NCBI RefSeq assembly: GCF_058153355.1
Contig: NZ_CM177019.1
Length of the DNA: 64,000 nt
Strand: one strand, 5' to 3'
Part shown: piece by piece, positions 32,375 to 45,166 of the stretch
Position numbering within the stretch: position 1 is the stretch's first letter
How the letters are laid out: each line of letters starts with the position of its first letter
Notes under the pieces: generated by a model
Databases searched by the model: none
Told to the model about the DNA's origin: nothing
Seen by the model: only the letters and a program-made list of their open reading frames with translations
Program-made: the position numbers and the translations under genes

Positions 32375-32411
32375 GAAATGCAAACAACTTCCATCAAAAA
32401 AGTGACAAAGG
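32375..32411 (+). repeat. copy A of a ~35-bp repeated intergenic element (mppA upstream)
   Basis: GAAATGCAAACAACTTCCATCAAAAAAGTGACAAAGG; near-identical copy at 36371..36408. Confidence 0.6.
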
Positions 32412-32654
32412 AAGCATCAAATGTTTTAAGTATCAATATATCAAATCAGATTTAGTGTAAATAATAGTCTCCAAAATGCGGTAAAGCACATAGAACTCCG
32501 AACACTACGTTCGGGCTTCGCACGTTCAAACCCGTTTTCGGTATCATAATCAGCATCTGTCGCCATTGTACGAAGAATAAAAAATAACCAAAACGTTGAA
32601 AGGAACTGAGAATACGTTAAGAGAAGAATTAAATTAATGTATCAGCAAGTAGTG

Positions 32655-33554
32655 CTAAACAGCACCTTTATACTTCAGCCTATCTATAAATAATGAGAAT
32701 GCCGAGCCAGCATGTCGACGGTGTGGATAGTACAGGTGATAACCGGGTAAATCTGGTGTGAATTTATCCAAAACACGTATCAGTTTTTTTTCTTTAATAG
32801 CCCGCTCAACCTGATCATAAGGTAGATACGCCAATCCATGCCCATCAATTGCAGCATCAATGATCAGGTCTATCGTATTCAGTAAAAGCTGACCTTCCAT
32901 GCGAACACGAACTTCACGTCCACCGCGTATTAATCTCCAGCGATTTGCTGTACCCGATGTGGGAAGATACAAATTAATTGCCTGATGATCTATTAATTGT
33001 GACACTGACGTTGGAGCACTTCGACGAGAAAAATAATCCGGTGAGCCAACAATAGCCATTGGTATATCTGGCCCGATTCGAATGGCGATCATATCTTTAT
33101 CCATCTCCCCACCCAGACGGACGCCTGCATCAAAACGTTCAGAAACGACATCGGTCAAACCATAATCAATGGTAAGCTGGATATCAATTTCAGGATGCGA
33201 TTTCAGGAATGTGCGCATAGCTGGTAACAATATCGTTTTTGCTGCATGTTCTACAGTAGTAATACGTATTGTCCCGGATGGGCGGTTCTGCAGATCGCTC
33301 AGGGATGTCAGGGCAGAATCTATGTCATGCAACATAGGGCCAAGAACAGACAAAAGATGCTCGCCCGCTTCAGTGGGTACAACGCTGCGCGTGGTTCGCG
33401 TCAGAAGCCGCAATCCCAATCGTTCTTCTATACGGCGCACTATCTGGCTTAAAGCTGACTGCGCCATGCTCAGGCGGGCTGCTGCGCGAGTGAAGCTACG
33501 CTCCTCTGCAACGACGACAAACGCCATCAGATCAGCGATTTCTTCACGCTTCAT
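32655..33554 (-). CDS. pgrR: LysR-type regulator PgrR/YcjZ (299 aa)
   Basis: N-terminal LysR HTH (LMAFVVVAEERSFTRAAARLSMAQSALSQIVRRIEE); divergent from ycjY. Confidence 0.8.
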   Translation of the reverse strand: MKREEIADLMAFVVVAEERSFTRAAARLSMAQSALSQIVRRIEERLGLRLLTRTTRSVVPTEAGEHLLSVLGPMLHDIDSALTSLSDLQNRPSGTIRITTVEHAAKTILLPAMRTFLKSHPEIDIQLTIDYGLTDVVSERFDAGVRLGGEMDKDMIAIRIGPDIPMAIVGSPDYFSRRSAPTSVSQLIDHQAINLYLPTSGTANRWRLIRGGREVRVRMEGQLLLNTIDLIIDAAIDGHGLAYLPYDQVERAIKEKKLIRVLDKFTPDLPGYHLYYPHRRHAGSAFSLFIDRLKYKGAV

Positions 33555-33578
33555 TCAGTATCTCCATACAATCTATTA

Positions 33579-33621
33579 ATCATTTAAATGATAGGTCTAA
33601 TCATAATTTAGGGTCTAATCA
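33579..33621. promoter_or_regulatory. putative LysR-type operator in pgrR-ycjY divergent region
   Basis: perfect palindrome ATCATTTAAATGAT (T-N11-A type) followed by direct repeats GGTCTAATCA x2. Confidence 0.35.
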
Positions 33622-33679
33622 ACTTAATGATCAATATCTATAGTGATATCACCAACCGTCAAAACGAACCGACAACTCC

Positions 33680-34612
33680 ATGAGGAACGGAATGATGAAT
33701 AATAAAGTCAGCTTCACTAACAGCAATAATCCAACCATCTCTTTGTCTGCAGTGATCTATTTCCCTCCAAAATTTGATGAAACCCGTCAGTATCCGGCAA
33801 TTGTGGTATCTCACCCAGGTGGGGGCGTTAAAGAGCAAACGGCCGGAACCTATGCCGAAAAACTGGCGGAAAAGGGATTTGTCACTATTGCTTATGACGC
33901 ATCTTATCAAGGTGAAAGCGGCGGCGAGCCGCGTCAGTTAGAAAACCCATACATTCGTACTGAAGACGTCAGTGCCGTGATTGATTACCTGACAACGCTT
34001 TCTTATGTCGACAATACCCGAATTGGTGCGATGGGAATTTGTGCCGGTGCAGGATATACAGCCAATGCTGCAATTCAGGATCGCCGCATCAAGGCCATCG
34101 CTACCGTTAGTGCGGTCAATATTGGTTCGATGTTCCGTAATGGTTGGGAAAACAATGTGAAATCTATTGATGCCCTACCATACGTTGACGCGGGTTCAAA
34201 CGCCCGAACCAGCGATATTAGCAGCGGAGAATACGCCACTATGCCACTGGCACCAATGAAGGAGTCCGATGCGCCGAACGAAGAACTGCGTCAGGCCTGG
34301 GAGTATTACCACACCCCTCGCGCGCAGTATCCAACAGCACCGGGTTACGCTACTTTGCGCAGCCTTAACCAGATTATTACCTATGATGCTTACCATATGG
34401 CGGAAGTGTACCTGACTCAGCCGATACAGATTGTGGCGGGCAGCCAGGCAGGGAGCAAATGGATGAGTGACGACCTGTACGATCGAGCATCAAGCCAGGA
34501 TAAACGCTATCACATTGTTGAAGGCGCAAACCATATGGATCTTTATGACGGCAAAGTCTATGTGGCTGAATCAATTTCAGTATTAGCTCCGTTCTTTGAG
34601 GAAACTCTGTAA
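33680..34612 (+). CDS. ycjY: alpha/beta-hydrolase family protein YcjY (310 aa as ORF)
   Basis: hydrolase-fold protein; context matches ycjY; true start may be the internal MMNNK. Confidence 0.75.
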   Translation: MRNGMMNNKVSFTNSNNPTISLSAVIYFPPKFDETRQYPAIVVSHPGGGVKEQTAGTYAEKLAEKGFVTIAYDASYQGESGGEPRQLENPYIRTEDVSAVIDYLTTLSYVDNTRIGAMGICAGAGYTANAAIQDRRIKAIATVSAVNIGSMFRNGWENNVKSIDALPYVDAGSNARTSDISSGEYATMPLAPMKESDAPNEELRQAWEYYHTPRAQYPTAPGYATLRSLNQIITYDAYHMAEVYLTQPIQIVAGSQAGSKWMSDDLYDRASSQDKRYHIVEGANHMDLYDGKVYVAESISVLAPFFEETL

Positions 34613-35551
34613 TGAAACATATTCAAATCCGTAATAGTGATATGGCCTGGCATATTGCTGCCAATATTCAGTTTCCACCAAATTTTGATGAGTCAAAACA
34701 GTATCCGGCGATTATCAGCGTCCATCCTTTTGGCAGTTGTAAGGAGCAGACGTCTGGCAATATCTATGGCAAGGCATTGGCTGAAAAAGGCTATGTCGTT
34801 CTCGCTTATGACGCCAGTTTCCAGGGAGAATCTGGTGGGGAGCCTCGTTGGATAGAAGATCCGACACAGCGCGTAGAGGATATTAGCCGTGTTATCGATT
34901 ATGCAGTAACTCTGCCATATGTTGATGCTGAACGCATTGGCGTGCTGGGTGTGTGTGTGGGGGGGGGGGGGTGGCTATGCCATTAATGCCGCGCTGACAG
35001 AAAAACGAATTAAAGCTGTAGTGAGTATTACGGGTGTTAATATCGGGCGTCTTTTTCGGGAAGGTTTCAGCAATTACGATCCGATTGGCGCATTGAATGC
35101 AATGGCGTCGCAACGAACCAAAGAGGCTCGTGGTGGAGAATTACAGATCAACGAATTACTTCCCGCCAGCCTGGATGCAGCAAAAGCCCATGGACTGACC
35201 GAACGCGATGTTTATGAAGCAACTGACTACTATAAAACACCACGCGGGCAACAACCGGGAGGTGCGACAAAAATGTTGTTCTCACATGCACAGAAAACGC
35301 TGGCCTGGGATGCCTTCGCATTTACTGAAGTGTTACTGACTCAGCCGGTGATGGTAGTAGTTGGTGAAAAAGTCGGTGCCTTCGGTGCTTATCGTGATGG
35401 ACTGGAAGTCTATGGCCGGGCGATGGTTTCGCAGGATCGTCAGTTAGTTTCGTTACCCGATTTCTCACATTATGAACTGTATGACAAACCGGAAGCAGTT
35501 CAGGAGGCGCTGGAAAAAGTTATTCCTTTTTTCAACACCCATCTGGGATAA
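34612..35551 (+). pseudogene. ycjY-paralogous alpha/beta hydrolase, frameshifted at a (GT)4-G12 tract
   Basis: ORFs 34612..34986 and 34919..35551 are collinear with YcjY residue-by-residue (DAERIGVLGVCVGGG | YAINAALTEKRIKAVVSITGVNIG... versus YcjY DNTRIGAMGICAGAGYTANAAIQDRRIKAIATVSAVNIG); reading frame switches inside gtgtgtgtg + 12 G (34951..34971). Confidence 0.7.
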
Positions 35552-35556
35552 GTTTC

Positions 35557-36207
35557 ATGAGAAATATTATGAAAAAAGTACTCATTCTTGGTGCTGGCGG
35601 TCAGATAGCCCGCCATGTGATTAATCAACTGGCAGATAAACAAACCATTAAACAAACTTTATTTGCTCGTCAGCCAGCAAAAATACACAAACCCTATCCA
35701 ACTAATAGCCAGATTATTATGGGGGATGTACTGAATCATGCAGCACTGAAGCAGGCCATGCAGGGACAGGATATTGTGTATGCCAACCTTACGGGGGAAG
35801 ATTTAGATATTCAGGCAAATTCAGTGATCGCTGCGATGAAAGCCTGTGATGTTAAACGTCTGATCTTTGTTCTTTCCCTCGGCATTTATGATGAAGTTCC
35901 AGGAAAATTTGGCGAATGGAATAATGCAGTTATTGGTGAGCCCCTAAAACCATTCCGCAGGGCTGCGGATGCAATTGAGGCTTCTGGACTGGAATATACA
36001 ATTCTTCGCCCTGCCTGGCTGACTGATGAAGATATTATTGATTATGAGCTTACCTCACGCAATGAACCATTCAAAGGTACGATCGTATCACGTAAGAGTG
36101 TCGCAGCATTAATCACAGATATCATCGATAAACCTGAGAAACACATTGGTGAGAATATAGGCATCAATCAACCCGGGACTGATGGTGATAAGCCCTTCTT
36201 CATGTAA
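35557..36207 (+). CDS. NAD(P)H-binding NmrA/SDR-like protein (216 aa)
   Basis: N-terminal Rossmann motif VLILGAGGQIARHV; I recall only a fragment (ymjC) at this position in K-12. Confidence 0.7.
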   Translation: MRNIMKKVLILGAGGQIARHVINQLADKQTIKQTLFARQPAKIHKPYPTNSQIIMGDVLNHAALKQAMQGQDIVYANLTGEDLDIQANSVIAAMKACDVKRLIFVLSLGIYDEVPGKFGEWNNAVIGEPLKPFRRAADAIEASGLEYTILRPAWLTDEDIIDYELTSRNEPFKGTIVSRKSVAALITDIIDKPEKHIGENIGINQPGTDGDKPFFM

Positions 36208-36370
36208 ATCAATTATATAGCTACCATCGTACTGTACTATGTGCAGTACGATTTATTAAACTTATTAAGGTGAACTGATCAATCAGATGCGATTAACATG
36301 TGTAGAACCAGTAAGAATAAAATACGCCATGTATATAACATTACGACAATTCTAATATCTGCACATCAAT

Positions 36371-36408
36371 GAAAATACAAACAACTTCCGGCAAAAAAGT
36401 GATACAAG
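36371..36408 (+). repeat. copy B of the ~35-bp repeated intergenic element (mpaA upstream)
   Basis: GAAAATACAAACAACTTCCGGCAAAAAAGTGATACAAG; about 90% identical to 32375..32411. Confidence 0.6.
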
Positions 36409-36497
36409 ATCGATAACATAGCGTTGAAGAAAAGGATTTGATAATCCGCAAAATTTGCACAACACTGCCTGTAATACTTCCTGAACCAGAGACGATT

Positions 36498-37226
36498 ATG
36501 ACCGTAACCCGCCCACGCGCCGAACGCGGCGCATTTCCGCCCGGAACAGAACATTACGGACGTTCATTATTGGGCGCGCCGTTAATCTGGTTTCCGGCCC
36601 CTGCAGCCAGTCGCGAAAGTGGTTTGATTCTGGCTGGCACTCACGGTGATGAAAACTCTTCGGTCGTCACGCTCTCCTGTGCTCTGCGGACTTTGACACC
36701 GTCTTTGCGCCGCCATCATGTAGTGCTGTGTGTGAATCCTGACGGCTGCCAGTTAGGGTTACGGGCCAATGCTAATGGTGTGGATTTAAACAGAAACTTT
36801 CCGGCGGCGAACTGGAAGGAGGGTGAAACGGTTTATCGCTGGAACAGCGCGGCTGAAGAACGTGATGTCGTATTACTGACAGGTGACAAACCTGGCTCCG
36901 AACCTGAAACCCAGGCGCTGTGCCAGCTTATACACCGCATTCAACCTGCCTGGGTGGTCTCATTCCACGATCCACTGGCCTGTATTGAAGATCCCAGACA
37001 CAGCGAATTAGGCGAATGGCTGGCCCAGGCGTTTGGATTGCCTCTGGTAACCAGCGTCGGTTATGAAACTCCTGGCTCTTTCGGCAGTTGGTGTGCGGAT
37101 CTCAACCTGCATTGCATCACCGCAGAGTTTCCACCTATCTCCTCCGACGAAGCCAGCGAAAAATACCTCTTTGCGATGGCTAACTTGCTGCGCTGGCATC
37201 CTAAAGATGCAATGCGCCCGTCGTGA
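36498..37226 (+). CDS. mpaA: murein peptide amidase A (gamma-D-Glu-Dap amidase, 242 aa from MTVTRPRAERG)
   Basis: zinc-carboxypeptidase-like motif GTHGDENSS; 3' end overlaps convergent ycjG by 26 bp. Confidence 0.85.
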   Translation: MTVTRPRAERGAFPPGTEHYGRSLLGAPLIWFPAPAASRESGLILAGTHGDENSSVVTLSCALRTLTPSLRRHHVVLCVNPDGCQLGLRANANGVDLNRNFPAANWKEGETVYRWNSAAEERDVVLLTGDKPGSEPETQALCQLIHRIQPAWVVSFHDPLACIEDPRHSELGEWLAQAFGLPLVTSVGYETPGSFGSWCADLNLHCITAEFPPISSDEASEKYLFAMANLLRWHPKDAMRPS

Positions 37227-38929: not shown

Positions 38930-40984
38930 GTGATGACTATTATGGATGATAAACAAATTACGGTCTGGCTTAAACACAATTGCTGTTCAACGGACATTCC
39001 TGCCATTGCCGAGGCACTAACGAACCATGCAGAATGGCTTTTAGAGCTAGCGCCAGATCCTATTGAACAAGGTAGTTCATGTTTACCGCCGACAGCTGCA
39101 GCCGGTATTTTTCTTGGCGCAGCGGCGATGGTTCACTGCGGCGAGGCTAGTGGTGCAGAAACCTGGCTCGAAGCAGCCATTACTGATTACCATTTCTTTA
39201 ATCCAAATGGATATAGTTCATGGAGAGGCAGTACGCCTGTTTTTACAGCATTATCGCGTTACCCGGCATTAAGAATGGTGTTATTTAACGCCGCTTGCGC
39301 AATGGAAGACTGGAATAAAGCATCCGCTGTTCTTGAATCGCTTTTCCATGCCGGCGATGTCCCGGAAGATAACCCTGTCGCCCCAAATTTTACCCCTTAT
39401 GCGCTGAAAGCGTTTATCGCGGATTACCACCCGTTAGGGCCTGCTTATTATGATGAAACCTGGTTGCTGGCAAAACAAGCGTGGTTAATTAATGCGGGCG
39501 TTCTGGATGAGCGAACCTGTAATACCTGGAAGCAATATACCCGCCACTTGCGCCATTTGATCCACAATACACAGTTTGCCGATGCGCTCTCTTTTGTACG
39601 CAGTAAAAAAGAACCGTTAAATCATATCCATACCTACTCAGACTTTTATCTGTATGCGATTGGTTTATTTTCTTATACTAGTCAGCTAAATGAAGCGCTG
39701 ACCTGGATAAAACAGTTAATCCACAACAATGATGGTCATTTCTGTGATCTTTTCGTTTCAACTGGCAAAGAGCGCCGAATAAAGCCTGAACTTAGTACCT
39801 TGCTGAATAATCTCTTGCACAGCGCAGAGTTTCAGGCGTTGCAGGATAAATATCTCACCGTCGGACATGATGTTGTGTATTCTGGTCCCTTCATGTCACT
39901 TTATGAAAAGGTTCTTGGCGGTAAGTCCCGAAAGCGCTGCGCGATTAGTCGAAAATTAATCTCGCCCGGCGAAGCGGTTTATGAATATCGTCAGCTGGAT
40001 AGTGTGGAATATATTGCAGCAAAAGCGGCCTTTCAGACATCTGAGCTAAATAATATCGCCCACCGGCATCATAATGATAGTTATCAGTGGCATGAATTTG
40101 CTGCCCAATGGCCTCGTCGGGGTTCACTTTCTCACCCAGATATTGCCCGTTATTTGTTTGAGCGCCAGGAAGGAAAATGCTTTGATGCCGCAGAGTTTAT
40201 ACAACTGATTGCGGAACCGTTTGTCTTTCCGATGCGTTTCATATGGGTTGCCGGGTTGTCCTTTGAATTACATCAGTATCCGGATGCCTATTTCGTAAAT
40301 GACAATATGGCGGGTGAATTTGTTAATCTCTGCTGGATGGCTATGAAATGCGGACATGCTGGAGACATTTTCAAACAACTGGCCCACGAGCCGCATGACG
40401 TTGCTGACCCTATTTACGCCATGCTCGCCACGTTTGACCGCGCTGATTGCCGTAGCGCCGCCGCCGCGCACTTTGGACAACCGGAACTACCGGAAATAAT
40501 GGCACTGGCTTTCAGTTCGAGGTTATCGCTGGACAGCGTCCTTACCATCGCTGAGTTTGGTAAAAATCAGCCGCGATTTTCACATGCGCTAGCAACGGCC
40601 CTCCTGCGTTACAACCTGCACATCTACTCAAACTATATGCCGCAGGTTAACTGGTTCCTTCAGGGGCTGGAACACTATGCTTTGGCAAAAGGCGGTCAAC
40701 TTTTAAATTTCTTTGTGCATATTCCAGAACAAATTCCCGTTCTGGCGACCATGCTGGAACATGGCGTATTAGTGCGTGGGATCGGTGAAGGTGCCTACGA
40801 TGGTTATGATAATTCAGCAAATTCATTTCATCATGCCGCCGTGATGCACTGCCTCACGCACGCGCCGGAAAAAGTCCGCTACTGGATGGAAACACCCTGG
40901 ATTCAGAACTATTTAGTGAATGCGCCGCTGCGTCAAACGGCGCGCCATGTGGAAGCCTGGCATAAAAAGTTTGGCATCAAATGA
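38930..40984 (+). CDS. uncharacterised 684-aa soluble protein (no recognisable domain)
   Basis: single long ORF with GGAG SD before the second ATG; no Walker A, HTH, DDE or TM signature; Cys/His/Trp/Tyr-rich; lies between tpx and tyrR. Confidence 0.7.
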   Translation: MMTIMDDKQITVWLKHNCCSTDIPAIAEALTNHAEWLLELAPDPIEQGSSCLPPTAAAGIFLGAAAMVHCGEASGAETWLEAAITDYHFFNPNGYSSWRGSTPVFTALSRYPALRMVLFNAACAMEDWNKASAVLESLFHAGDVPEDNPVAPNFTPYALKAFIADYHPLGPAYYDETWLLAKQAWLINAGVLDERTCNTWKQYTRHLRHLIHNTQFADALSFVRSKKEPLNHIHTYSDFYLYAIGLFSYTSQLNEALTWIKQLIHNNDGHFCDLFVSTGKERRIKPELSTLLNNLLHSAEFQALQDKYLTVGHDVVYSGPFMSLYEKVLGGKSRKRCAISRKLISPGEAVYEYRQLDSVEYIAAKAAFQTSELNNIAHRHHNDSYQWHEFAAQWPRRGSLSHPDIARYLFERQEGKCFDAAEFIQLIAEPFVFPMRFIWVAGLSFELHQYPDAYFVNDNMAGEFVNLCWMAMKCGHAGDIFKQLAHEPHDVADPIYAMLATFDRADCRSAAAAHFGQPELPEIMALAFSSRLSLDSVLTIAEFGKNQPRFSHALATALLRYNLHIYSNYMPQVNWFLQGLEHYALAKGGQLLNFFVHIPEQIPVLATMLEHGVLVRGIGEGAYDGYDNSANSFHHAAVMHCLTHAPEKVRYWMETPWIQNYLVNAPLRQTARHVEAWHKKFGIK

Positions 40985-41021: not shown

Positions 41022-42563
41022 TCACTCTTCGCTTTTCTTCTGGTTTAAGCCATATTCCCGCAACTTATTGGCAATCGCGGTATGCGAAACGCCGAGACGT
41101 TTTGCCAGTTTGCGCGTGCTGGGATAATTGCGATAAAGCTGAGTTAATACCGAGCGTTCAAAACGGCTGGTAATTTCGTCCAGCGAACCTTCCATCGCAT
41201 CTTCGCCCACGGCTACCGTTGCGGCGTCATAATCCGGCAACAAAATATCCTGAGGACGCAGCTCATAGCCGTCCAGTTGTGTCAGTGCGCGATAGATAGC
41301 GTTCTTTAACTGCCGCACATTTCCCGGCCACGCATAACGCGTAAGTACAGTATTCAGGTCAGCGGCCAGTTTCGGACGCGGCACGCCCTGCTCGTCGGCA
41401 AAGCGAGCGACGAACAGTTCAGTTAACGGCATGATGTCCTGCGGACAGTCACGTAACGGCGGCAGATTGAGCGTCAACACGTTCAGACGATAATAGAGAT
41501 CTTCACGGAACACGCCTTTTTGCACCAGTTCGACCAAATTCTTCTGCGTAGCGCAAATAACCCTTACATCGACATGCACTTCATGATCTTCACCAACTCG
41601 ACGGAAAGTACCATCATTAAGGAAACGCAGTAATTTCGCCTGCATCCTTGGCGACATCTCGCCTATCTCATCTAACAGCACCGAACCACCGTTCGCCTGC
41701 TCAAAGAACCCTTTTTTACCTTCCGGAGCATGACCAAACAGTTCACTCTCGACCGCATCTTCCGGTATAGACGCGCAGTTCAGCGCCAGGTAAGGTTTGC
41801 CCGCTCGTGGGCTTGCCTGATGGCAGGCGTAGGCAAAGAGATCTTTACCTGTACCGGTGTCACCCGTAATCAGCAACGGCGCGCTTAGCATCGCCAGTTT
41901 CTGCGCCTGTTCGACAACATGCTTCATTTTCGGGCTGACGGCGACAATTTGACTGAAGGCACTGACGTCCTGTGCAGCGACATTCTGCAACTGACGGCCC
42001 ATACGAATCGTCGAGCGCAACATCACCACCGCACCGGTCAGAACGTGTTGATCATTTTCATCCTGAAGATAAACAGGCGTAATCTCCATCAGGAAATTCT
42101 GCCCATTAATAACGACATGCTCGTTATGCGAGTCTTGCGGTTCGCTTTCCAGCCAGCGTAAAAAATTAAAGCCGTTAATTAATTGCGCGGCGGTATGGTT
42201 GCGCAGGCGATCCAATTTTTGCCCAAAAAGCTGACAGCTCGCCGGGTTCGCCATATCCACTTTGCTTTTCATATCAACAGAAAGCACAGGTTCAGGCAAC
42301 GCCTCCAGTAACGCGCTCAACGCCAGATGCTCACGTTCGGAAGGCATCCACGGGACAGTACGCACATCGGTAACACCTGCAATACGGCGTATTTCGGCCA
42401 TCAGACTGCTGAAGCTCTCAAACTCCAGTTCAGCAAAATTGAGGTAGATTCGCCCAATGGGGTCAATCTCAATACCGCGTAAATCAATGCCTCTCAGCAC
42501 CAGTAAATCGAGTAATTCGCGGGTCAGACCAAGTCGGTCTTCACAAAAGACTTCCAGACGCAT
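41022..42563 (-). CDS. tyrR: tyrosine repressor TyrR (513 aa from MRLEVFCEDRLG)
   Basis: ACT/PAS N-terminus, AAA+ domain with GDTGTGKD, C-terminal HTH; lacks the GAFTGA loop, as expected for TyrR. Confidence 0.95.
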   Translation of the reverse strand: MRLEVFCEDRLGLTRELLDLLVLRGIDLRGIEIDPIGRIYLNFAELEFESFSSLMAEIRRIAGVTDVRTVPWMPSEREHLALSALLEALPEPVLSVDMKSKVDMANPASCQLFGQKLDRLRNHTAAQLINGFNFLRWLESEPQDSHNEHVVINGQNFLMEITPVYLQDENDQHVLTGAVVMLRSTIRMGRQLQNVAAQDVSAFSQIVAVSPKMKHVVEQAQKLAMLSAPLLITGDTGTGKDLFAYACHQASPRAGKPYLALNCASIPEDAVESELFGHAPEGKKGFFEQANGGSVLLDEIGEMSPRMQAKLLRFLNDGTFRRVGEDHEVHVDVRVICATQKNLVELVQKGVFREDLYYRLNVLTLNLPPLRDCPQDIMPLTELFVARFADEQGVPRPKLAADLNTVLTRYAWPGNVRQLKNAIYRALTQLDGYELRPQDILLPDYDAATVAVGEDAMEGSLDEITSRFERSVLTQLYRNYPSTRKLAKRLGVSHTAIANKLREYGLNQKKSEE

Positions 42564-42710
42564 GGGAACCTTCACCTGAAAAAAGAACAATTAATATGAT
42601 GATATGACACTATTTGGATAGCAGGAAGGTTTCTGTCAACAATCATTGACACAAAGACGGAAAAACGGGCACTTCGGCGTAAAGATATCCGGTCAGCACC
42701 CGATATTGCA

Positions 42711-43772
42711 TTATTTTTCGCTGGGCGTTTTGCCTTTTTGCAGCGTCTCTTTCACCTGACCGATAAGCTGACGACGGAAATCCCCGAGGCGAGGTTTGTC
42801 ATCGTCAATCCACGGCAGCGGGCGGCAAAGCTCCATAGCTTTAATCCCCAGTCGCGCCGTCAGAAGTCCAGCACCAATCCCCTGAGCTGCGCGGGTAGAC
42901 AAACGCGCAGCGAGATCTTGCGACATCCAGTCCATCCCCACTTCGCGCACCAGTTCGCTGGCTCCGGCGAAAGCGATATTCAGCAATACCAGCTTAAACA
43001 GGCGCAAACGGCTGTAATATCCCAGTTCAATGCCATACAGCGTGGCGATGCGATTGATCAAACGCAGATTGCGCCAGGCGATAAATGCCATATCCACCAG
43101 CGCCAGCGGGCTAACGGCGATCATTAACGTTGATTCCGCCGCTGAGCGACTGATTTCGCGCCGCGCCTGAGCATCTAAAACCGGCTGGACCAGATGAGCA
43201 TACAGGCTGACCACTTCACGATCGTTCTGCGTTTCATGGATTGACGCATACCAGCGTTGCAGCGCCGGATGGGACTGATCAATACCCGCCTGCTGCGCCA
43301 GTTTTTCACAAAATGCGCGGCCTTTGCCCGTGCCGTGGCTGTGCAATAAATCACGCGCTTCGTCGCGTTCATGGGCGCGCTGTCGCAAGCGCCATAAGCG
43401 CCGCCACTCTGTTACCACAGAACCTACGCCAGCGCCGATAATCAATGCCCCAGCGGCACATCCACCCAGCGCTACCCAATCCTGAGTTTGCCAGGCATTC
43501 ATCGTCCACTGCACGCCCTGTCCGACAACGCTTGCACCAAACAGAGCCAACCCGCCCATCACCATTTTGCGCCACAGGCTGCGTTTCGGACGTAACGCCG
43601 CGTCCATCACCGCTTCAACTTGCCCCTCTTCTTCCTGCGCTTCGTCGAGCGTGGCCGGGGCAAAATTTTGCGCCTGATTTTCGTCAAAGGTCTGCTGCGC
43701 CCTGAATTTTGGATTCTGATCGACCTCCAGTGGACCGTCGAAATCAATACGTGGTTTTAACGGTTCGGTCAT
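42711..43772 (-). CDS. ycjF: UPF0283 membrane protein YcjF (353 aa)
   Basis: 353-aa ORF with TM helices; 4-bp overlap with ycjX stop. Confidence 0.8.
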
Positions 43773-45166
43773 CGCAATTTATCTCCTATTAAAAATTCCA
43801 GCGCAGCATCAAGGCGAATATGCGGCAACGGTTTGTCGACATCCATCACCTGCGGGCGAAACGCCTCAAACTGGAAGCCTTGCTTATCCCAGAACGCCTG
43901 GCCAGGCAAACGTGCGGGAACTTCGCCAGGATACACAGTGAGCGGTGCGCCATCGCTGAGTCGATTACCGCGCAGCGCCGGGATTTTCTCACCGTTAACA
44001 TCAATAATGCCGCTGGTGGTCGCCTGAACTGACGCCAGCCCCAGGCAGTCCATGCTGATCCCTTCGAACGCCGCATTTTGCCAGGCATCCTGAATCAGTT
44101 GTTGCAGTAATGAAACCATATTGGCGTGCTGATCGATGGTCACATGATCCGCTTTAGTGGCAGCAAACAATAGCTTATCGATAACCGGCGAAAACAAGCG
44201 CCGGAACAAGGTACGCTGCCCGTAGTGGAAGCTTTGCATCAGCTGCGTCAGCGCCAGACGCATATCATTGAATGCTTGTGGTCCACTGTTGAGAGGTTGC
44301 AGGCAATCCACCAGCACAATCTGCCGATCAAAGCGCAGAAAATGATTTTTATAGAACCCCTTCACCACTTTCTCGCAGTAATAATTAAACCGTTCGCGCA
44401 GCATTCCGGCATTGGTGTGCTTGTCGGCCTGTGCAAGTTTTGATTCGCCCCAGGCATCGACATCTGGCCACGGGAAGAATTGCAGCGCGGGCGCACCTGC
44501 CATATCGCCCGGCAAGACAAAACGCCCAGGCTGAATAAAGTGCAGCCCCTGCTGTTTGCAGTGGTGGAGATAATCGGTCCATGCGGCAGCAATGTCTGCA
44601 AGACGGTTTTCGTCGGCAGGTGCTAGTGGGTCCAGCCCTTCGCACATCATTCGCCATTTTGCCGACCATTCGCCGCGCTGACCATTGAGTAAGCCTGTCA
44701 TCTGGCGCGACCAGCTTAAATAGTCCTGCGCCAACATCGGCAAGTCGAGTAACCATTCGCCAGGATAATCCACTATCTCCAGATACAACGTGGAAGTGTC
44801 TTTGAAGTGACGCAACAGCGAATCGTTCGATTTATAGCGTAGCGCCAGGCGAATCTCACTGACGCCGCGTGTTGGGGTCGGCCAGGCGGGAGGATCGCCA
44901 TATAACTGCGCCAGCCCTTCATCGTAGGTGAAGCGCGGAATGCCAAAGTCACGCTGGGGAATGCGTTTTACGCCCAGCAGGCGCTCTTCACGCACCGCAC
45001 TTAATAGCGGCAAGCGTGCTCCGGCATGAATATTGAGCAACTGATTGACCATCGCAGTGATAAACGCGGTTTTGCCGCTGCGGCTAAGTCCGGTTACAGC
45101 GAGGCGCAGATGTCTGTCGACACCCCGATTCACCAGCGCATTAAGTTCATTTTTAAGTCGCTTCAT
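43769..45166 (-). CDS. ycjX: P-loop NTPase YcjX (465 aa from [10 protein letters not shown])
   Basis: Walker A GLSRSGKT. Confidence 0.8.

What the first reader, a model, noticed from the sequence alone, without database searches (positions are those of the whole stretch)
33680..36207. Ancestral ycjY-paralogue plus NAD(P)-binding gene pair present where K-12 has only fragments
Between ycjY and mpaA this window carries a second alpha/beta-hydrolase gene (34612..35551) and an intact 216-aa NmrA/SDR-like gene (35557..36207). I recall only short pseudogene fragments (ymjC/ymjD) at this position in K-12, so this strain appears to keep the undeleted state of a small accessory module next to peptidoglycan-recycling genes under the neighbouring LysR regulator PgrR. 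The functions of the two hydrolases and the reductase are not known to me.
Basis: partly seen in the sequence, partly recalled or inferred. Interest (0 to 1): 0.4.

Follow-up and report, generated by a model that had tools for sequence, protein, structure and literature searches.

The report
Decaying accessory hydrolase cassette beside mpaA
This strain carries the full-length version of a four-gene accessory cassette (a regulator, two hydrolases and a reductase) that E. coli K-12 keeps only as fragments. It is a polymorphism already annotated in public genomes, and here the second hydrolase is broken by an expanded G-rich repeat.

Summary
Window 33680-36207 holds ycjY, a second alpha/beta-hydrolase ("hyd2", 42% identical to YcjY) and an NAD(P)-binding atypical SDR. 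K-12 has only ymjD (21 aa) and ymjC (60 aa) there.

- **K-12 fragments:** ymjD is an in-frame 289-codon deletion remnant of hyd2. ymjC is the first 46 SDR codons plus read-through.
- **Lesion in the window:** hyd2 is a pseudogene. A compound (TG)5G13 tract at 34950-34971, just after the catalytic Cys codon, is 7 nt longer than the canonical (TG)4G8. It is the only lesion.
- **Tract variation:** total length is 16-20 nt in O157:H7/O55:H7 genomes and 15 nt in the other lineages sampled.
- **Distribution in 5,426 complete E. coli genomes:** about 24% full-length, about 30% lacking hyd2, about 43% K-12-type, and 3% with an empty site.
- **"Ancestral" holds only relative to K-12.** pgrR-ycjY-hyd2-sdr sits between 37-nt direct repeats 3,997 bp apart, in a site that is empty in Citrobacter, Klebsiella and Enterobacter. 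The LysR-plus-two-hydrolase core recurs without murein genes in Serratia and many Rhizobiales.

Function is untested. The most likely role is an ester, thioester or lactone hydrolase pair. Low novelty, modest interest.

The parts
32376..32412 (.). Left copy of the 37-nt imperfect direct repeat that brackets the cassette
   Evidence: Family D3 of the repeat finder: 84% identity to the right copy, spacing 3997 bp. A single copy is present at the empty site in E. coli E400634 and in Citrobacter.
32655..33554 (-). pgrR (ycjZ), the LysR-type regulator. It is part of the cassette.
   Evidence: 299-aa ORF. Annotated pgrR in K-12 and N3. A LysR homologue lies divergently next to the hydrolase pair in 27 of 34 loci from other taxa.
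33680..34612 (+). ycjY, a Cys-nucleophile alpha/beta-hydrolase. Intact here.
   Evidence: ORF. Pfam DLH, S15 and Abhydrolase_1. The K-12 orthologue has a solved structure, PDB 5XB6. Its stop codon overlaps the hyd2 start (TAATG).
34612..35551 (+). hyd2, the second alpha/beta-hydrolase (YcjY family, 42% identical to YcjY). A pseudogene here because of a frameshift.
   Evidence: Two overlapping ORFs in different frames. In-silico removal of 7 nt restores a 310-aa protein one residue different from intact N3 WP_116836599. AlphaFold model pLDDT 89; best fold match is YcjY 5XB6, TM 0.88.
34950..34971 (+). Compound microsatellite (TG)5G13 (G-run 34959-34971), 7 nt longer than the canonical 15-nt tract that spans the last base of a Gly codon, the Val and catalytic Cys codons, two Gly codons and part of a third (motif G-V-C-G-G-G-G-Y).
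   Evidence: Direct reading and counts in nine E. coli loci. Total tract lengths: 15 nt (N3, O145 RM9467); 16 (FRIK2069, EDL933); 17 (7409); 472, in frame; F3113; DEC5B. Only E. coli encodes the Gly run as GGG GGG GGT.
34667..35540 (+). Segment absent from K-12 and from all hyd2-less E. coli (deletion 1). The remnant is ymjD.
   Evidence: It corresponds to 867 nt (289 codons) in the canonical allele. ymjD is 18 N-terminal hyd2 codons followed by Asn-Leu-Gly and the stop; the Leu-Gly-stop codons are the last codons of hyd2.
35557..36207 (+). Atypical SDR / NAD(P)H-binding protein (NmrA-like). Intact here. Full-length form of K-12 ymjC.
   Evidence: PF13460, 183.7 bits. Two substitutions in 213 aligned residues versus PDB 3QVO 'NmrA family protein'. 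GAGGQIA dinucleotide-binding motif is present. No YxxxK motif (direct reading of the translation).
35707..36371 (+). Segment absent from K-12-type strains (deletion 2): the 3' three-quarters of the SDR gene plus the downstream spacer. The remnant is ymjC.
   Evidence: ymjC is 46 SDR codons plus 14 read-through codons. The right breakpoint abuts the right direct-repeat copy.
36226..36258 (+). Terminator-like hairpin (12-bp stem, 3-nt loop, weak U tail) 19 nt after the SDR stop. It lies inside K-12 deletion 2.
   Evidence: RNA fold of 36200-36275: -17.8 kcal/mol, z -2.8. Identical in all eight other E. coli loci examined that keep the SDR. Not called by the consensus terminator scan, so its function is inferred only.
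36373..36409 (.). Right copy of the 37-nt direct repeat. From here on, the sequence is the native mpaA upstream region.
   Evidence: Empty-site genomes align with the window from 36373 onward.
36498..37226 (+). mpaA (murein tripeptide amidase), the resident gene next to the insertion. Not part of the cassette.
   Evidence: Annotation of orthologous loci. mppA and mpaA are directly adjacent in Citrobacter, Klebsiella and Enterobacter.

Best explanation
**What is shown**
- The region is the full-length form of a roughly 4-kb accessory cassette.
  - It comprises divergent pgrR (a LysR regulator) and an operon ycjY-hyd2-sdr.
- The cassette was inserted into the ancestral divergent mppA|mpaA intergenic region of Escherichia. 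The insertion left a 37-nt direct duplication.
- The cassette is being eroded in E. coli.
  - Deletion 1 removes 289 codons of hyd2 in frame and leaves ymjD.
  - Deletion 2, found in K-12-type strains, removes most of the SDR gene and the downstream spacer and leaves ymjC.
  - Other lineages carry nonsense mutations, an IS insertion, or length changes in a (TG)n(G)n tract.
  - That tract encodes the Gly-rich turn right after the catalytic Cys.
- In this window every gene is full length, but hyd2 is inactivated by a +7 nt expansion of the tract, (TG)5G13.

**What is inferred**
- YcjY and Hyd2 are cytoplasmic hydrolases with a probable Cys-His-Asp/Glu triad.
- Their nearest characterised structural relatives are esterases and thioesterases.
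- Their genes overlap (TAATG), which is consistent with coupled translation.
- They most likely act together on an ester, thioester or lactone substrate sensed by PgrR. The NAD(P)H-binding protein would then process the product.
- The link to murein-peptide recycling is positional. In K-12 it may have been strengthened by deletion 2, which removes a terminator-like hairpin between sdr and mpaA.
For: **Gene content and K-12 fragments**
- ORFs, K-12 annotation and deletion junctions.

**Census in 5,426 complete genomes**
- hyd2 core present in 1,282 genomes.
- SDR 3' part present in 2,926.
- Empty-site junction in 174.

**Cassette boundaries and ancestral site**
- 37-nt direct repeats 3,997 bp apart.
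- Empty site with one repeat copy in E. coli E400634.
- mppA is directly adjacent to mpaA in Citrobacter, Klebsiella oxytoca and Enterobacter.
- The repeat sequence is recognisable there as a single copy in Citrobacter.

**Cassette in other taxa**
- LysR-ycjY-hyd2 recurs in 27-34 loci without mpaA, mppA or ycjG within 4 kb.
  - Enterobacterales: Serratia, Citrobacter, Pseudocitrobacter and Shimwellia.
  - Alphaproteobacteria: Rhizobium, Agrobacterium, Microvirga, Afipia, Hyphomicrobium, Bosea and Sphingomonas, among others.
- The loci carrying clear YcjY orthologues have amino-acid identity of about 70-92% for YcjY and 61-89% for Hyd2; the most distant loci fall to about 46-50% and 48-57%.
- DNA homology to Pseudocitrobacter runs exactly from the pgrR stop to the sdr stop, 79% identity.

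**Tract**
- Lengths were read directly and sampled.
- The tract is the only lesion in hyd2.

**Independent inactivations of hyd2**
- Seen: **Catalytic residues and fold**
- C115 (in G-x-C-x-G) and H284 are invariant in 35 sequences. D260 is at least 90% conserved.
- Fold neighbours: YcjY 5XB6, PA2218, thioesterase DcsB, GrgF, polyester and feruloyl esterases, and lipases.

**Regulon**
- The K-12 PgrR regulon includes ycjY-ymjDC-mpaA (PMC5934670).
Against: - No enzyme activity, ligand or transcript was measured, so the functional part is inference.
- The hairpin has a weak U tail and was not called by the terminator scan.
- The cassette carries no mobility gene, so the insertion mechanism is unknown.
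- The 3% of E. coli with an empty site could be secondary losses by recombination between the repeats rather than retention of the ancestral state.
- YcjY over-expression causes filamentation in K-12 (PMC3614548). That would fit a cell-wall role.
- The genome collection is clone-biased, with many O157:H7 genomes, so the percentages are not population frequencies.
- The G13 length in the window cannot be verified without reads.
Confidence: 0.8

Rival explanations
1. The 13-G run is a sequencing or assembly error at a homopolymer, and hyd2 is actually intact or has another length in the source strain.
For: None of the 1,282 E. coli genomes that carry hyd2 matches the window's tract length: the closest match is 2 nt shorter. 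Long homopolymers are error-prone on several platforms (general knowledge).
Against: - Expanded alleles of 16-20 nt occur in the O157:H7/O55:H7 clade.
- Sets of closely similar cattle isolates (strains 113-140) share one identical match length.
- The window also differs in the number of TG units (5 versus 4), which is not a homopolymer-calling error.
- Apart from the tract, the 551-bp core is identical to the O55:H7 DEC5B allele (99.6% identity, with a 2-nt length difference).
Confidence: 0.15
2. The (TG)n(G)n tract is a programmed phase-variation switch (a contingency locus) that turns hyd2 on and off.
For: The tract lies inside the ORF. Its length differs among closely related O157:H7/O55:H7 genomes, and one allele (18 nt, strain 472) is in frame and annotated as intact. 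Only E. coli uses the slippery GGG GGG GGT codons.
Against: - Roughly 2% of O157-clade genomes sampled are in frame.
- All 44 non-O157 genomes in the spread sample keep the canonical length.
- hyd2 is also lost by nonsense codons, an IS insertion and a 289-codon deletion. That pattern fits relaxed selection on a decaying gene.
- No switching rate was measured.
Confidence: 0.08
3. The two hydrolases and the reductase are dedicated murein-peptide recycling enzymes that co-evolved with mpaA, ycjG and mppA.
For: - The cassette lies between mppA and mpaA.
- The K-12 PgrR regulon is reported to include mpaA and ycjG.
- YcjY over-expression gives filaments.
- Weak Pfam matches to peptidase S9 and S15 families.
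Against: - None of the 34 loci from other taxa has mpaA, ycjG or mppA within 4 kb of the pair.
- The murein genes are adjacent to each other without the cassette in Citrobacter, Klebsiella, Enterobacter and 174 E. coli genomes.
- The closest characterised folds are thioesterases and esterases.
- About 76% of the E. coli genomes surveyed (empty-site strains included) lack the hyd2 core.
Confidence: 0.12

Closest known systems
E. coli K-12 ycjY-ymjD-ymjC-mpaA operon and its repressor PgrR (YcjZ)
   Same: Same locus and same genes. ymjD and ymjC are the deletion remnants of hyd2 and the SDR. pgrR and ycjY are 98% identical at the DNA level.
   Different: - The window has full-length hyd2 (frameshifted) and an intact SDR.
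- It also has a 165-bp spacer with a terminator-like hairpin, which K-12 lacks.
- Operon structure and PgrR control of mpaA were established only for the K-12 arrangement.
YcjY (PDB 5XB6) and PA2218 (PDB 2HDW), uncharacterised alpha/beta-hydrolases
   Same: Hyd2 matches YcjY at phmmer E 4e-68. The model matches at TM 0.88 with 40% identity. PA2218 matches at TM 0.83. They share the G-x-C-x-G nucleophile elbow and an invariant His.
   Different: Hyd2 forms its own orthologous group with a C-G-G-G-G-Y motif, against C-A-G-A-G-Y in YcjY, and always sits next to a YcjY orthologue. Neither PDB entry has a published activity that I could find.
Dienelactone hydrolase family (PF01738) and the UilS acyl-homoserine lactonase family (NF047920)
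   Same: Pfam DLH is passed (31.7 and 38.4 bits against a cut-off of 21). The Cys nucleophile is typical of dienelactone hydrolases. UilS is the best NCBIfam match, with a full-length alignment at E 1e-21 to 1e-25.
   Different: UilS scores of 77-88 bits are far below the 400-bit equivalog cut-off, so these are not UilS orthologues. No lactonase assay exists for YcjY or Hyd2.
NmrA-like / PF13460 atypical SDRs (PDB 3QVO, Veillonella 3R6D, ChuY, biliverdin-IX-beta/flavin reductase)
   Same: The window protein shows only two substitutions against 3QVO over 213 aligned residues. It is a distant homologue of the others (E 1e-6 to 1e-20). It has the Rossmann GxxGxxG motif.
   Different: No substrate is known for 3QVO. 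YxxxK is absent, so the classical SDR mechanism is not expected.
Lactone catabolic operons that pair a hydrolase with a dehydrogenase, such as Agrobacterium blcABC (from memory)
   Same: Same logic only: a regulator, one or more ring-opening or ester-cleaving hydrolases, and an NAD(P)-dependent oxidoreductase.
   Different: The protein families are unrelated (BlcC is a metallo-beta-lactamase-fold lactonase). This is a resemblance of pathway logic only and was not tested here.

Membership tests
YcjY-type alpha/beta-hydrolase (PDB 5XB6 / COG1073-like) | Full-length sequence and fold similarity to YcjY | tested here: met
   phmmer E 3.9e-68 over residues 12-307. Foldseek E 2e-30, TM 0.88.
YcjY-type alpha/beta-hydrolase (PDB 5XB6 / COG1073-like) | Nucleophile elbow G-x-Cys-x-G and catalytic His conserved | tested here: met
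   C115, G113, G117 and H284 are invariant in 35 sequences. D260 is at least 90% conserved. Triad geometry was not inspected.
YcjY-type alpha/beta-hydrolase (PDB 5XB6 / COG1073-like) | Intact reading frame in this window | tested here: not met
   +7 nt in the (TG)n(G)n tract splits hyd2 into 124-aa and 210-aa ORFs. ycjY itself is intact.
Dienelactone hydrolase family (PF01738) | Score above the Pfam gathering threshold | tested here: met
   YcjY 38.4 bits and Hyd2 31.7 bits against a cut-off of 21. Several other alpha/beta-hydrolase families also pass, so the assignment is not exclusive.
Dienelactone hydrolase family (PF01738) | Hydrolysis of dienelactone or other lactones | not testable with these tools
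   Requires an enzyme assay.
UilS quorum-quenching AHL lactonase (NF047920) | Score above the NCBIfam equivalog cut-off (400 bits) | tested here: not met
   88.1 bits (YcjY) and 76.6 bits (Hyd2).
PF13460 NAD(P)H-binding atypical SDR (NmrA-like) | Domain score above the cut-off and a GxxGxxG motif | tested here: met
   183.7 bits against 27.2. GAGGQIA at residues 12-18. Two substitutions in 213 aligned residues versus 3QVO.
Classical SDR | Catalytic YxxxK motif | tested here: not met
   No YxxxK in the 216-aa translation (direct reading).
Phase-variable contingency locus (simple-sequence-repeat switch) | Repeat tract inside the ORF with length polymorphism among close relatives | tested here: met
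   Total tract length 15-22 nt. G-run 8-15 and 3-5 TG units.
Phase-variable contingency locus (simple-sequence-repeat switch) | Reversible high-frequency ON/OFF switching with a sizeable in-frame fraction | tested here: inconclusive
   Only about 6 of roughly 315 O157-clade genomes appear in frame. The switching rate cannot be measured here.
Horizontally acquired genomic islet | Flanking direct repeats, plus an empty site in conspecifics and outgroups | tested here: met
   37-nt direct repeats. Empty site in 174 E. coli genomes and in Citrobacter, Klebsiella and Enterobacter.
Horizontally acquired genomic islet | Mobility genes (integrase or transposase) within or next to the islet | tested here: not met
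   Only pgrR, ycjY, hyd2 and sdr lie between the repeats.

The most novel reading that the evidence does not exclude
PgrR is natively the regulator of a horizontally mobile cassette of two Cys-hydrolases, with or without a reductase, that has nothing to do with peptidoglycan. On this reading, its reported control of murein-tripeptide amidase mpaA in K-12 is a by-product of two events. The first is the cassette landing in the mppA|mpaA promoter region. The second is a K-12-type deletion that removes a terminator-like hairpin and fuses mpaA to the ycjY transcript. The label "peptidoglycan-recycling regulator" would then hold only for the roughly 43% of E. coli genomes surveyed that have that deletion.
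Probability: 0.3. Interest if true: 0.45.

Novelty: already known. Interest (0 to 1): 0.27.

Why it matters
- **Annotation.** The result explains what the K-12 small ORFs ymjD and ymjC are.
  - It shows that K-12 is the most eroded common state of this locus.
  - It also shows that the PgrR regulon was defined in that state.
- **Regulation.** If the terminator inference holds, PgrR control of mpaA differs between the K-12-type strains (about 43%) and the 54% that keep the SDR gene.
- **Function.** The conserved LysR-plus-two-hydrolase core, shared at about 61-84% amino-acid identity between the hydrolases of E. coli and Rhizobiales, marks a portable module.
  - Its substrate is unknown.
  - Two of its four components already have crystal structures, so it is a tractable target for function discovery.
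- **Strain typing.** The G-rich tract is an unusually long and variable homopolymer for E. coli. It could be a useful marker within O157:H7/O55:H7.

None of this changes current understanding in a major way.

Tried and rejected
- **Literature.** Whole-word searches for 5XB6, 3QVO and PA2218 found no functional study.
  - The PgrR paper (PMID 23301696) and the nitrogen-starvation paper (PMID 27231238) are not held. PgrR facts therefore come second-hand from PMC5934670 and PMC12711010.
  - A search for ymjD as a small protein found nothing.
- **Promoter and terminator scan.** The consensus scan of 33400-36600 gave no more sites than shuffled sequence and did not call the sdr-downstream hairpin.
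- **Other conserved neighbours.** Clustering all ORFs of 34 loci from other taxa found nothing recurrent besides the LysR gene, the two hydrolases and, in five loci, the PF13460 protein. A classical SDR recurs in seven of the more distant loci.
- **UilS lactonase orthology.** Rejected on score.
- **Recent tandem duplication of ycjY.** Rejected, because the pair is 42% identical and conserved as a pair across classes.
- **My first tract count.** An early count of 6 G in the canonical allele was wrong. Direct extraction gives a G-run of 8 within a 15-nt tract.
- **Source strain.** It was not identified.
  - The best E. coli match over 36200-60000 is 98.3%.
  - The best match over the module is 99.2%.
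Full report
**1. Observation**

The six-frame ORF list and the sequence show the following genes.
- pgrR at 32655-33554 on the minus strand.
- ycjY at 33680-34612.
- A second hydrolase gene at 34612-35551. Its start overlaps the ycjY stop (TAATG). It is split into a 124-aa ORF and a 210-aa ORF in another frame.
- A 216-aa ORF at 35557-36207.
- mpaA from 36498.

Pfam gives these matches.
- Both hydrolases fall in alpha/beta-hydrolase families, including DLH, Peptidase_S15 and Abhydrolase_1, all above their cut-offs.
- The third protein falls in PF13460 (NAD(P)H-binding) at 183.7 bits.

K-12 MG1655 is annotated with ymjD (66 bp) and ymjC (183 bp) between ycjY and mpaA.

**2. What the K-12 fragments are**

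Alignment shows two deletions in K-12 relative to the window.
- **Deletion 1** covers window 34667-35540.
  - In the canonical allele this is 867 nt, or 289 codons, and it is in frame.
  - ymjD (MKHIQIRNSDMDWHIAANNLG) is the first 18 hyd2 codons followed by Asn-Leu-Gly and the stop; the Leu-Gly-stop codons are the end of hyd2.
- **Deletion 2** covers window 35707-36371.
  - ymjC is the first 46 SDR codons plus 14 read-through codons.

A second common class, represented by strain WP2-W18 (L003), has deletion 1 with the same left breakpoint (34666) but keeps the SDR.

**3. The lesion in the window**

Strain N3 has an intact 310-aa hyd2 (WP_116836599).
- The window differs by a compound tract after CTGGG. 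The window has (TG)5G13, 22 nt at 34950-34971. The canonical form is (TG)4 with a G-run of 8, 15 nt in total.
- The tract encodes the turn after the nucleophile, G-V-C-G-G-G-G-Y.
- Removing 7 nt in silico restores a 310-aa protein that differs from N3 at one residue, E73 against K73.
- The tract is therefore the only inactivating lesion in hyd2.

**4. Tract variation elsewhere**

Tract lengths were read directly from fetched loci.

| Total tract length | Strain(s) | State |
|---|---|---|
| 15 nt | N3, O145 RM9467 | canonical |
| 16 nt | FRIK2069, EDL933 | frameshifted |
| 17 nt | 7409 | frameshifted |
| 18 nt | 472 | in frame, annotated intact, one extra Gly |
| 19 nt | F3113, (TG)5G10 | frameshifted |
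| 20 nt | DEC5B, (TG)3G15 | frameshifted |

- In O55:H7 DEC5A, an ISEc20 element sits inside the G-run.
- Match lengths in a 60-row even sample of the 1,282 hyd2-bearing genomes break down as follows.
  - 44 of 60 rows: canonical length.
  - 10 of 60: canonical +1.
  - 4 of 60: canonical +2.
  - 1 of 60: canonical +5.
  - 1 of 60: the IS-split copy.
- Nearly all sampled expanded alleles belong to genomes labelled O157:H7 or O55:H7, or of O157-like size.
- The top-60 list adds 3 genomes at +4 and 6 at +3.
- Apart from the tract, the window's 551-bp hyd2 core is identical to the O55:H7 DEC5B allele.
- Orthologues in 31 other taxa encode the same Gly run with mixed GGC, GGT and GGA codons, with a longest G-run of 2-6. 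The slippery run is therefore specific to E. coli.

hyd2 is also inactivated independently elsewhere.
- W13stop in E. coli W/KO11FL.
- Q71stop in O145 RM9467.

The overall pattern is gene decay. The tract is a mutational hot spot, not a demonstrated switch.

**5. Distribution in E. coli**

Counts are from 5,426 complete genomes.

| Feature searched | Genomes |
|---|---|
| hyd2 core | 1,282 (23.6%) |
| 3' part of the SDR gene | 2,926 (53.9%) |
| Empty-site junction (mppA next to mpaA) | 174 (3.2%) |

By subtraction:
- About 1,640 genomes (30%) have ycjY plus the SDR without hyd2. These include UTI89 and ST131.
- About 2,300 genomes (43%) are K-12-type.

The collection is clone-biased, so these are not population frequencies.

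**6. The cassette is an insertion**

- E. coli E400634 has mppA and mpaA 182 bp apart, with no pgrR, ycjY, hyd2 or sdr.
- Aligning it with the window puts the break at 32405/36373.
- A 37-nt imperfect direct repeat (84% identity; 32376-32412 and 36373-36409; spacing 3,997 bp) brackets the four genes.
- mppA and mpaA are directly adjacent and divergent in Citrobacter, Klebsiella oxytoca and Enterobacter. They are followed there by ycjG, tpx and tyrR.
- The repeat sequence is recognisable as a single copy in the Citrobacter intergenic region.
- The empty site is therefore the ancestral enterobacterial arrangement. The full cassette is ancestral only relative to the deleted E. coli states.
- The right end of K-12 deletion 2 abuts the right repeat copy.

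**7. The cassette elsewhere**

One scan of species-representative genomes with Hyd2 returned 36 loci. tblastn with the neighbouring proteins and ORF clustering give this picture.
- A YcjY orthologue lies next to a Hyd2 orthologue in nearly all loci.
- A divergent PgrR-like LysR gene is present in 27 loci.
- The PF13460 protein is present in 5 loci.
- No mpaA, mppA or ycjG lies within 4 kb in any locus outside Escherichia.

Amino-acid identities to the E. coli proteins:

| Group | PgrR | YcjY | Hyd2 | SDR |
|---|---|---|---|---|
| Serratia sp. PL17, Citrobacter, Pseudocitrobacter, Shimwellia | 86-88% | 90-92% | 86-89% | 82% (Pseudocitrobacter) |
| Rhizobium, Agrobacterium, Microvirga, Camelimonas, Nitratireductor, Afipia, Hyphomicrobium, Reyranella, Bosea, Sphingomonas | 57-73% | 73-84% | 61-82% | 65-70% |

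- In Serratia grimesii the neighbouring LysR is only 42% identical to PgrR, although YcjY (86%) and Hyd2 (85%) are close.
- Nucleotide homology to the Pseudocitrobacter locus runs exactly from the pgrR stop to the sdr stop, 32655-36216, at 79%.
- These identities across bacterial classes indicate horizontal spread of a self-contained module. This reading rests on general knowledge of typical core-protein divergence.
- GC content: sdr 42%, pgrR, ycjY and hyd2 47-49%, mpaA and ycjG 54-55%.

**8. What the proteins are**

- **Solved structures.**
  - YcjY has a solved structure (5XB6), as does its relative PA2218 (2HDW).
  - The SDR shows two substitutions in 213 aligned residues against 3QVO, "NmrA family protein". 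It is distantly related to Veillonella 3R6D, ChuY and biliverdin-IX-beta/flavin reductase.
- **Conserved residues.** In a 35-sequence alignment of both hydrolase groups, G113-x-C115-x-G117 and H284 are invariant. D260 is at least 90% conserved, with Glu in some sequences. A Cys-His-Asp/Glu triad is inferred from this.
- **Fold.** An AlphaFold model of Hyd2 (pLDDT 89, pTM 0.90) matches the following.
  - YcjY at TM 0.88 and PA2218 at TM 0.83.
  - The macrolactone-forming thioesterase DcsB.
  - GrgF.
  - A polyesterase, PET46, lipases and feruloyl esterases.
  - Peptidases only more distantly.
- **Best named family.** The best NCBIfam match is the UilS acyl-homoserine lactonase family, but it is far below the cut-off (77-88 bits against 400).
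- **Other features.**
  - The SDR has a GxxGxxG motif and no YxxxK motif.
  - Neither hydrolase has an N-terminal hydrophobic stretch by direct reading. A cytoplasmic location is inferred from this.

**9. Mechanism proposed**

Shown: gene order, overlapping stop and start codons, conservation as a pair with a LysR gene, and catalytic-residue conservation.

Inferred:
- PgrR responds to a small molecule and controls the divergent ycjY-hyd2-sdr operon.
- The two Cys-hydrolases act jointly or in sequence on an ester, thioester or lactone.
- The NAD(P)H-binding protein modifies the product.

I put about 0.35 on an ester/thioester/lactone substrate and about 0.12 on a murein-peptide substrate.

A terminator-like hairpin lies after the sdr stop.
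- It spans 36226-36252 with a U-rich tail. The 76-nt segment 36200-36275 folds at -17.8 kcal/mol, z -2.8.
- It is identical in all eight other E. coli loci examined that keep the SDR.
- It lies inside K-12 deletion 2.
- The K-12 operon ycjY-ymjD-ymjC-mpaA (PMC5934670) may therefore be a consequence of that deletion.
- The U tail is weak and the consensus scan did not call it. I give this inference about 0.3.

**10. Verdict**

- The finding is real and correctly interpreted, but it is ordinary.
- The genes are annotated in more than a thousand RefSeq genomes. Two of the four proteins have deposited structures.
- The K-12 fragments are annotated genes, and I recall them being described as deletion remnants.
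- I did not find the following points in the literature I could search.
  - The insertion boundaries and direct repeats.
  - The four-state polymorphism with counts.
  - The cross-class distribution of the LysR-plus-two-hydrolase core.
  - The hypervariable tract with repeated independent loss of hyd2.
  - The possible terminator loss.
- These additions are modest.

Noticed in passing
window 38930-40984: A 684-aa ORF sits between tpx and tyrR and has no Pfam match. It is absent from K-12, N3 and WP2-W18 and is annotated 'hypothetical protein' (WP_103253635) in E. coli E400634. Klebsiella has an AbrB-family gene and Enterobacter a DUF4432 gene at the same tpx-tyrR spot, so this looks like a second insertion hot spot.
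   Followed up: partly
L009 (E. coli O55:H7 DEC5A) 760-2201, equivalent to window ~34965: An IS110-family element, ISEc20, is inserted exactly within the G-run of hyd2.
   Followed up: partly
L053 (E. coli W/KO11FL), L055 (O145 RM9467), L003 (WP2-W18): Independent nonsense mutations: hyd2 W13stop, hyd2 Q71stop, and an internal stop in ycjY. Decay of the cassette is recurrent and not confined to the tract.
   Followed up: partly
window 35557-35580: A 12-bp indel at the SDR start. The window and N3 have ATGAGAAATATTATGAAAAAAGTA, while K-12 and WP2-W18 have ATGAAAAATGTA. The true start codon (216 or 212 aa) is uncertain.
   Followed up: no
window 36200-60000 and 41024-44281: The window's flank is only 95-96% identical to K-12 and N3 over tyrR to ycjX. 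Over 36200-60000 its best match is 98.3%, to E. coli strains that have the empty mppA|mpaA site, and most E. coli genomes are 90-95%. The source lineage was not identified, and the locus looks mosaic.
   Followed up: partly
L011 (Citrobacter sp. Awk 4) 5014/5015, equivalent to window 35632-36036: The Citrobacter copy of the cassette has its own internal deletion within the SDR gene. Serratia sp. PL17 lacks the SDR altogether. The reductase is therefore the most dispensable part in other genera too.
   Followed up: no
E. coli plasmids (summary): Six of the 5,407 matching places for the module query lie on plasmids. They were not examined.
   Followed up: no
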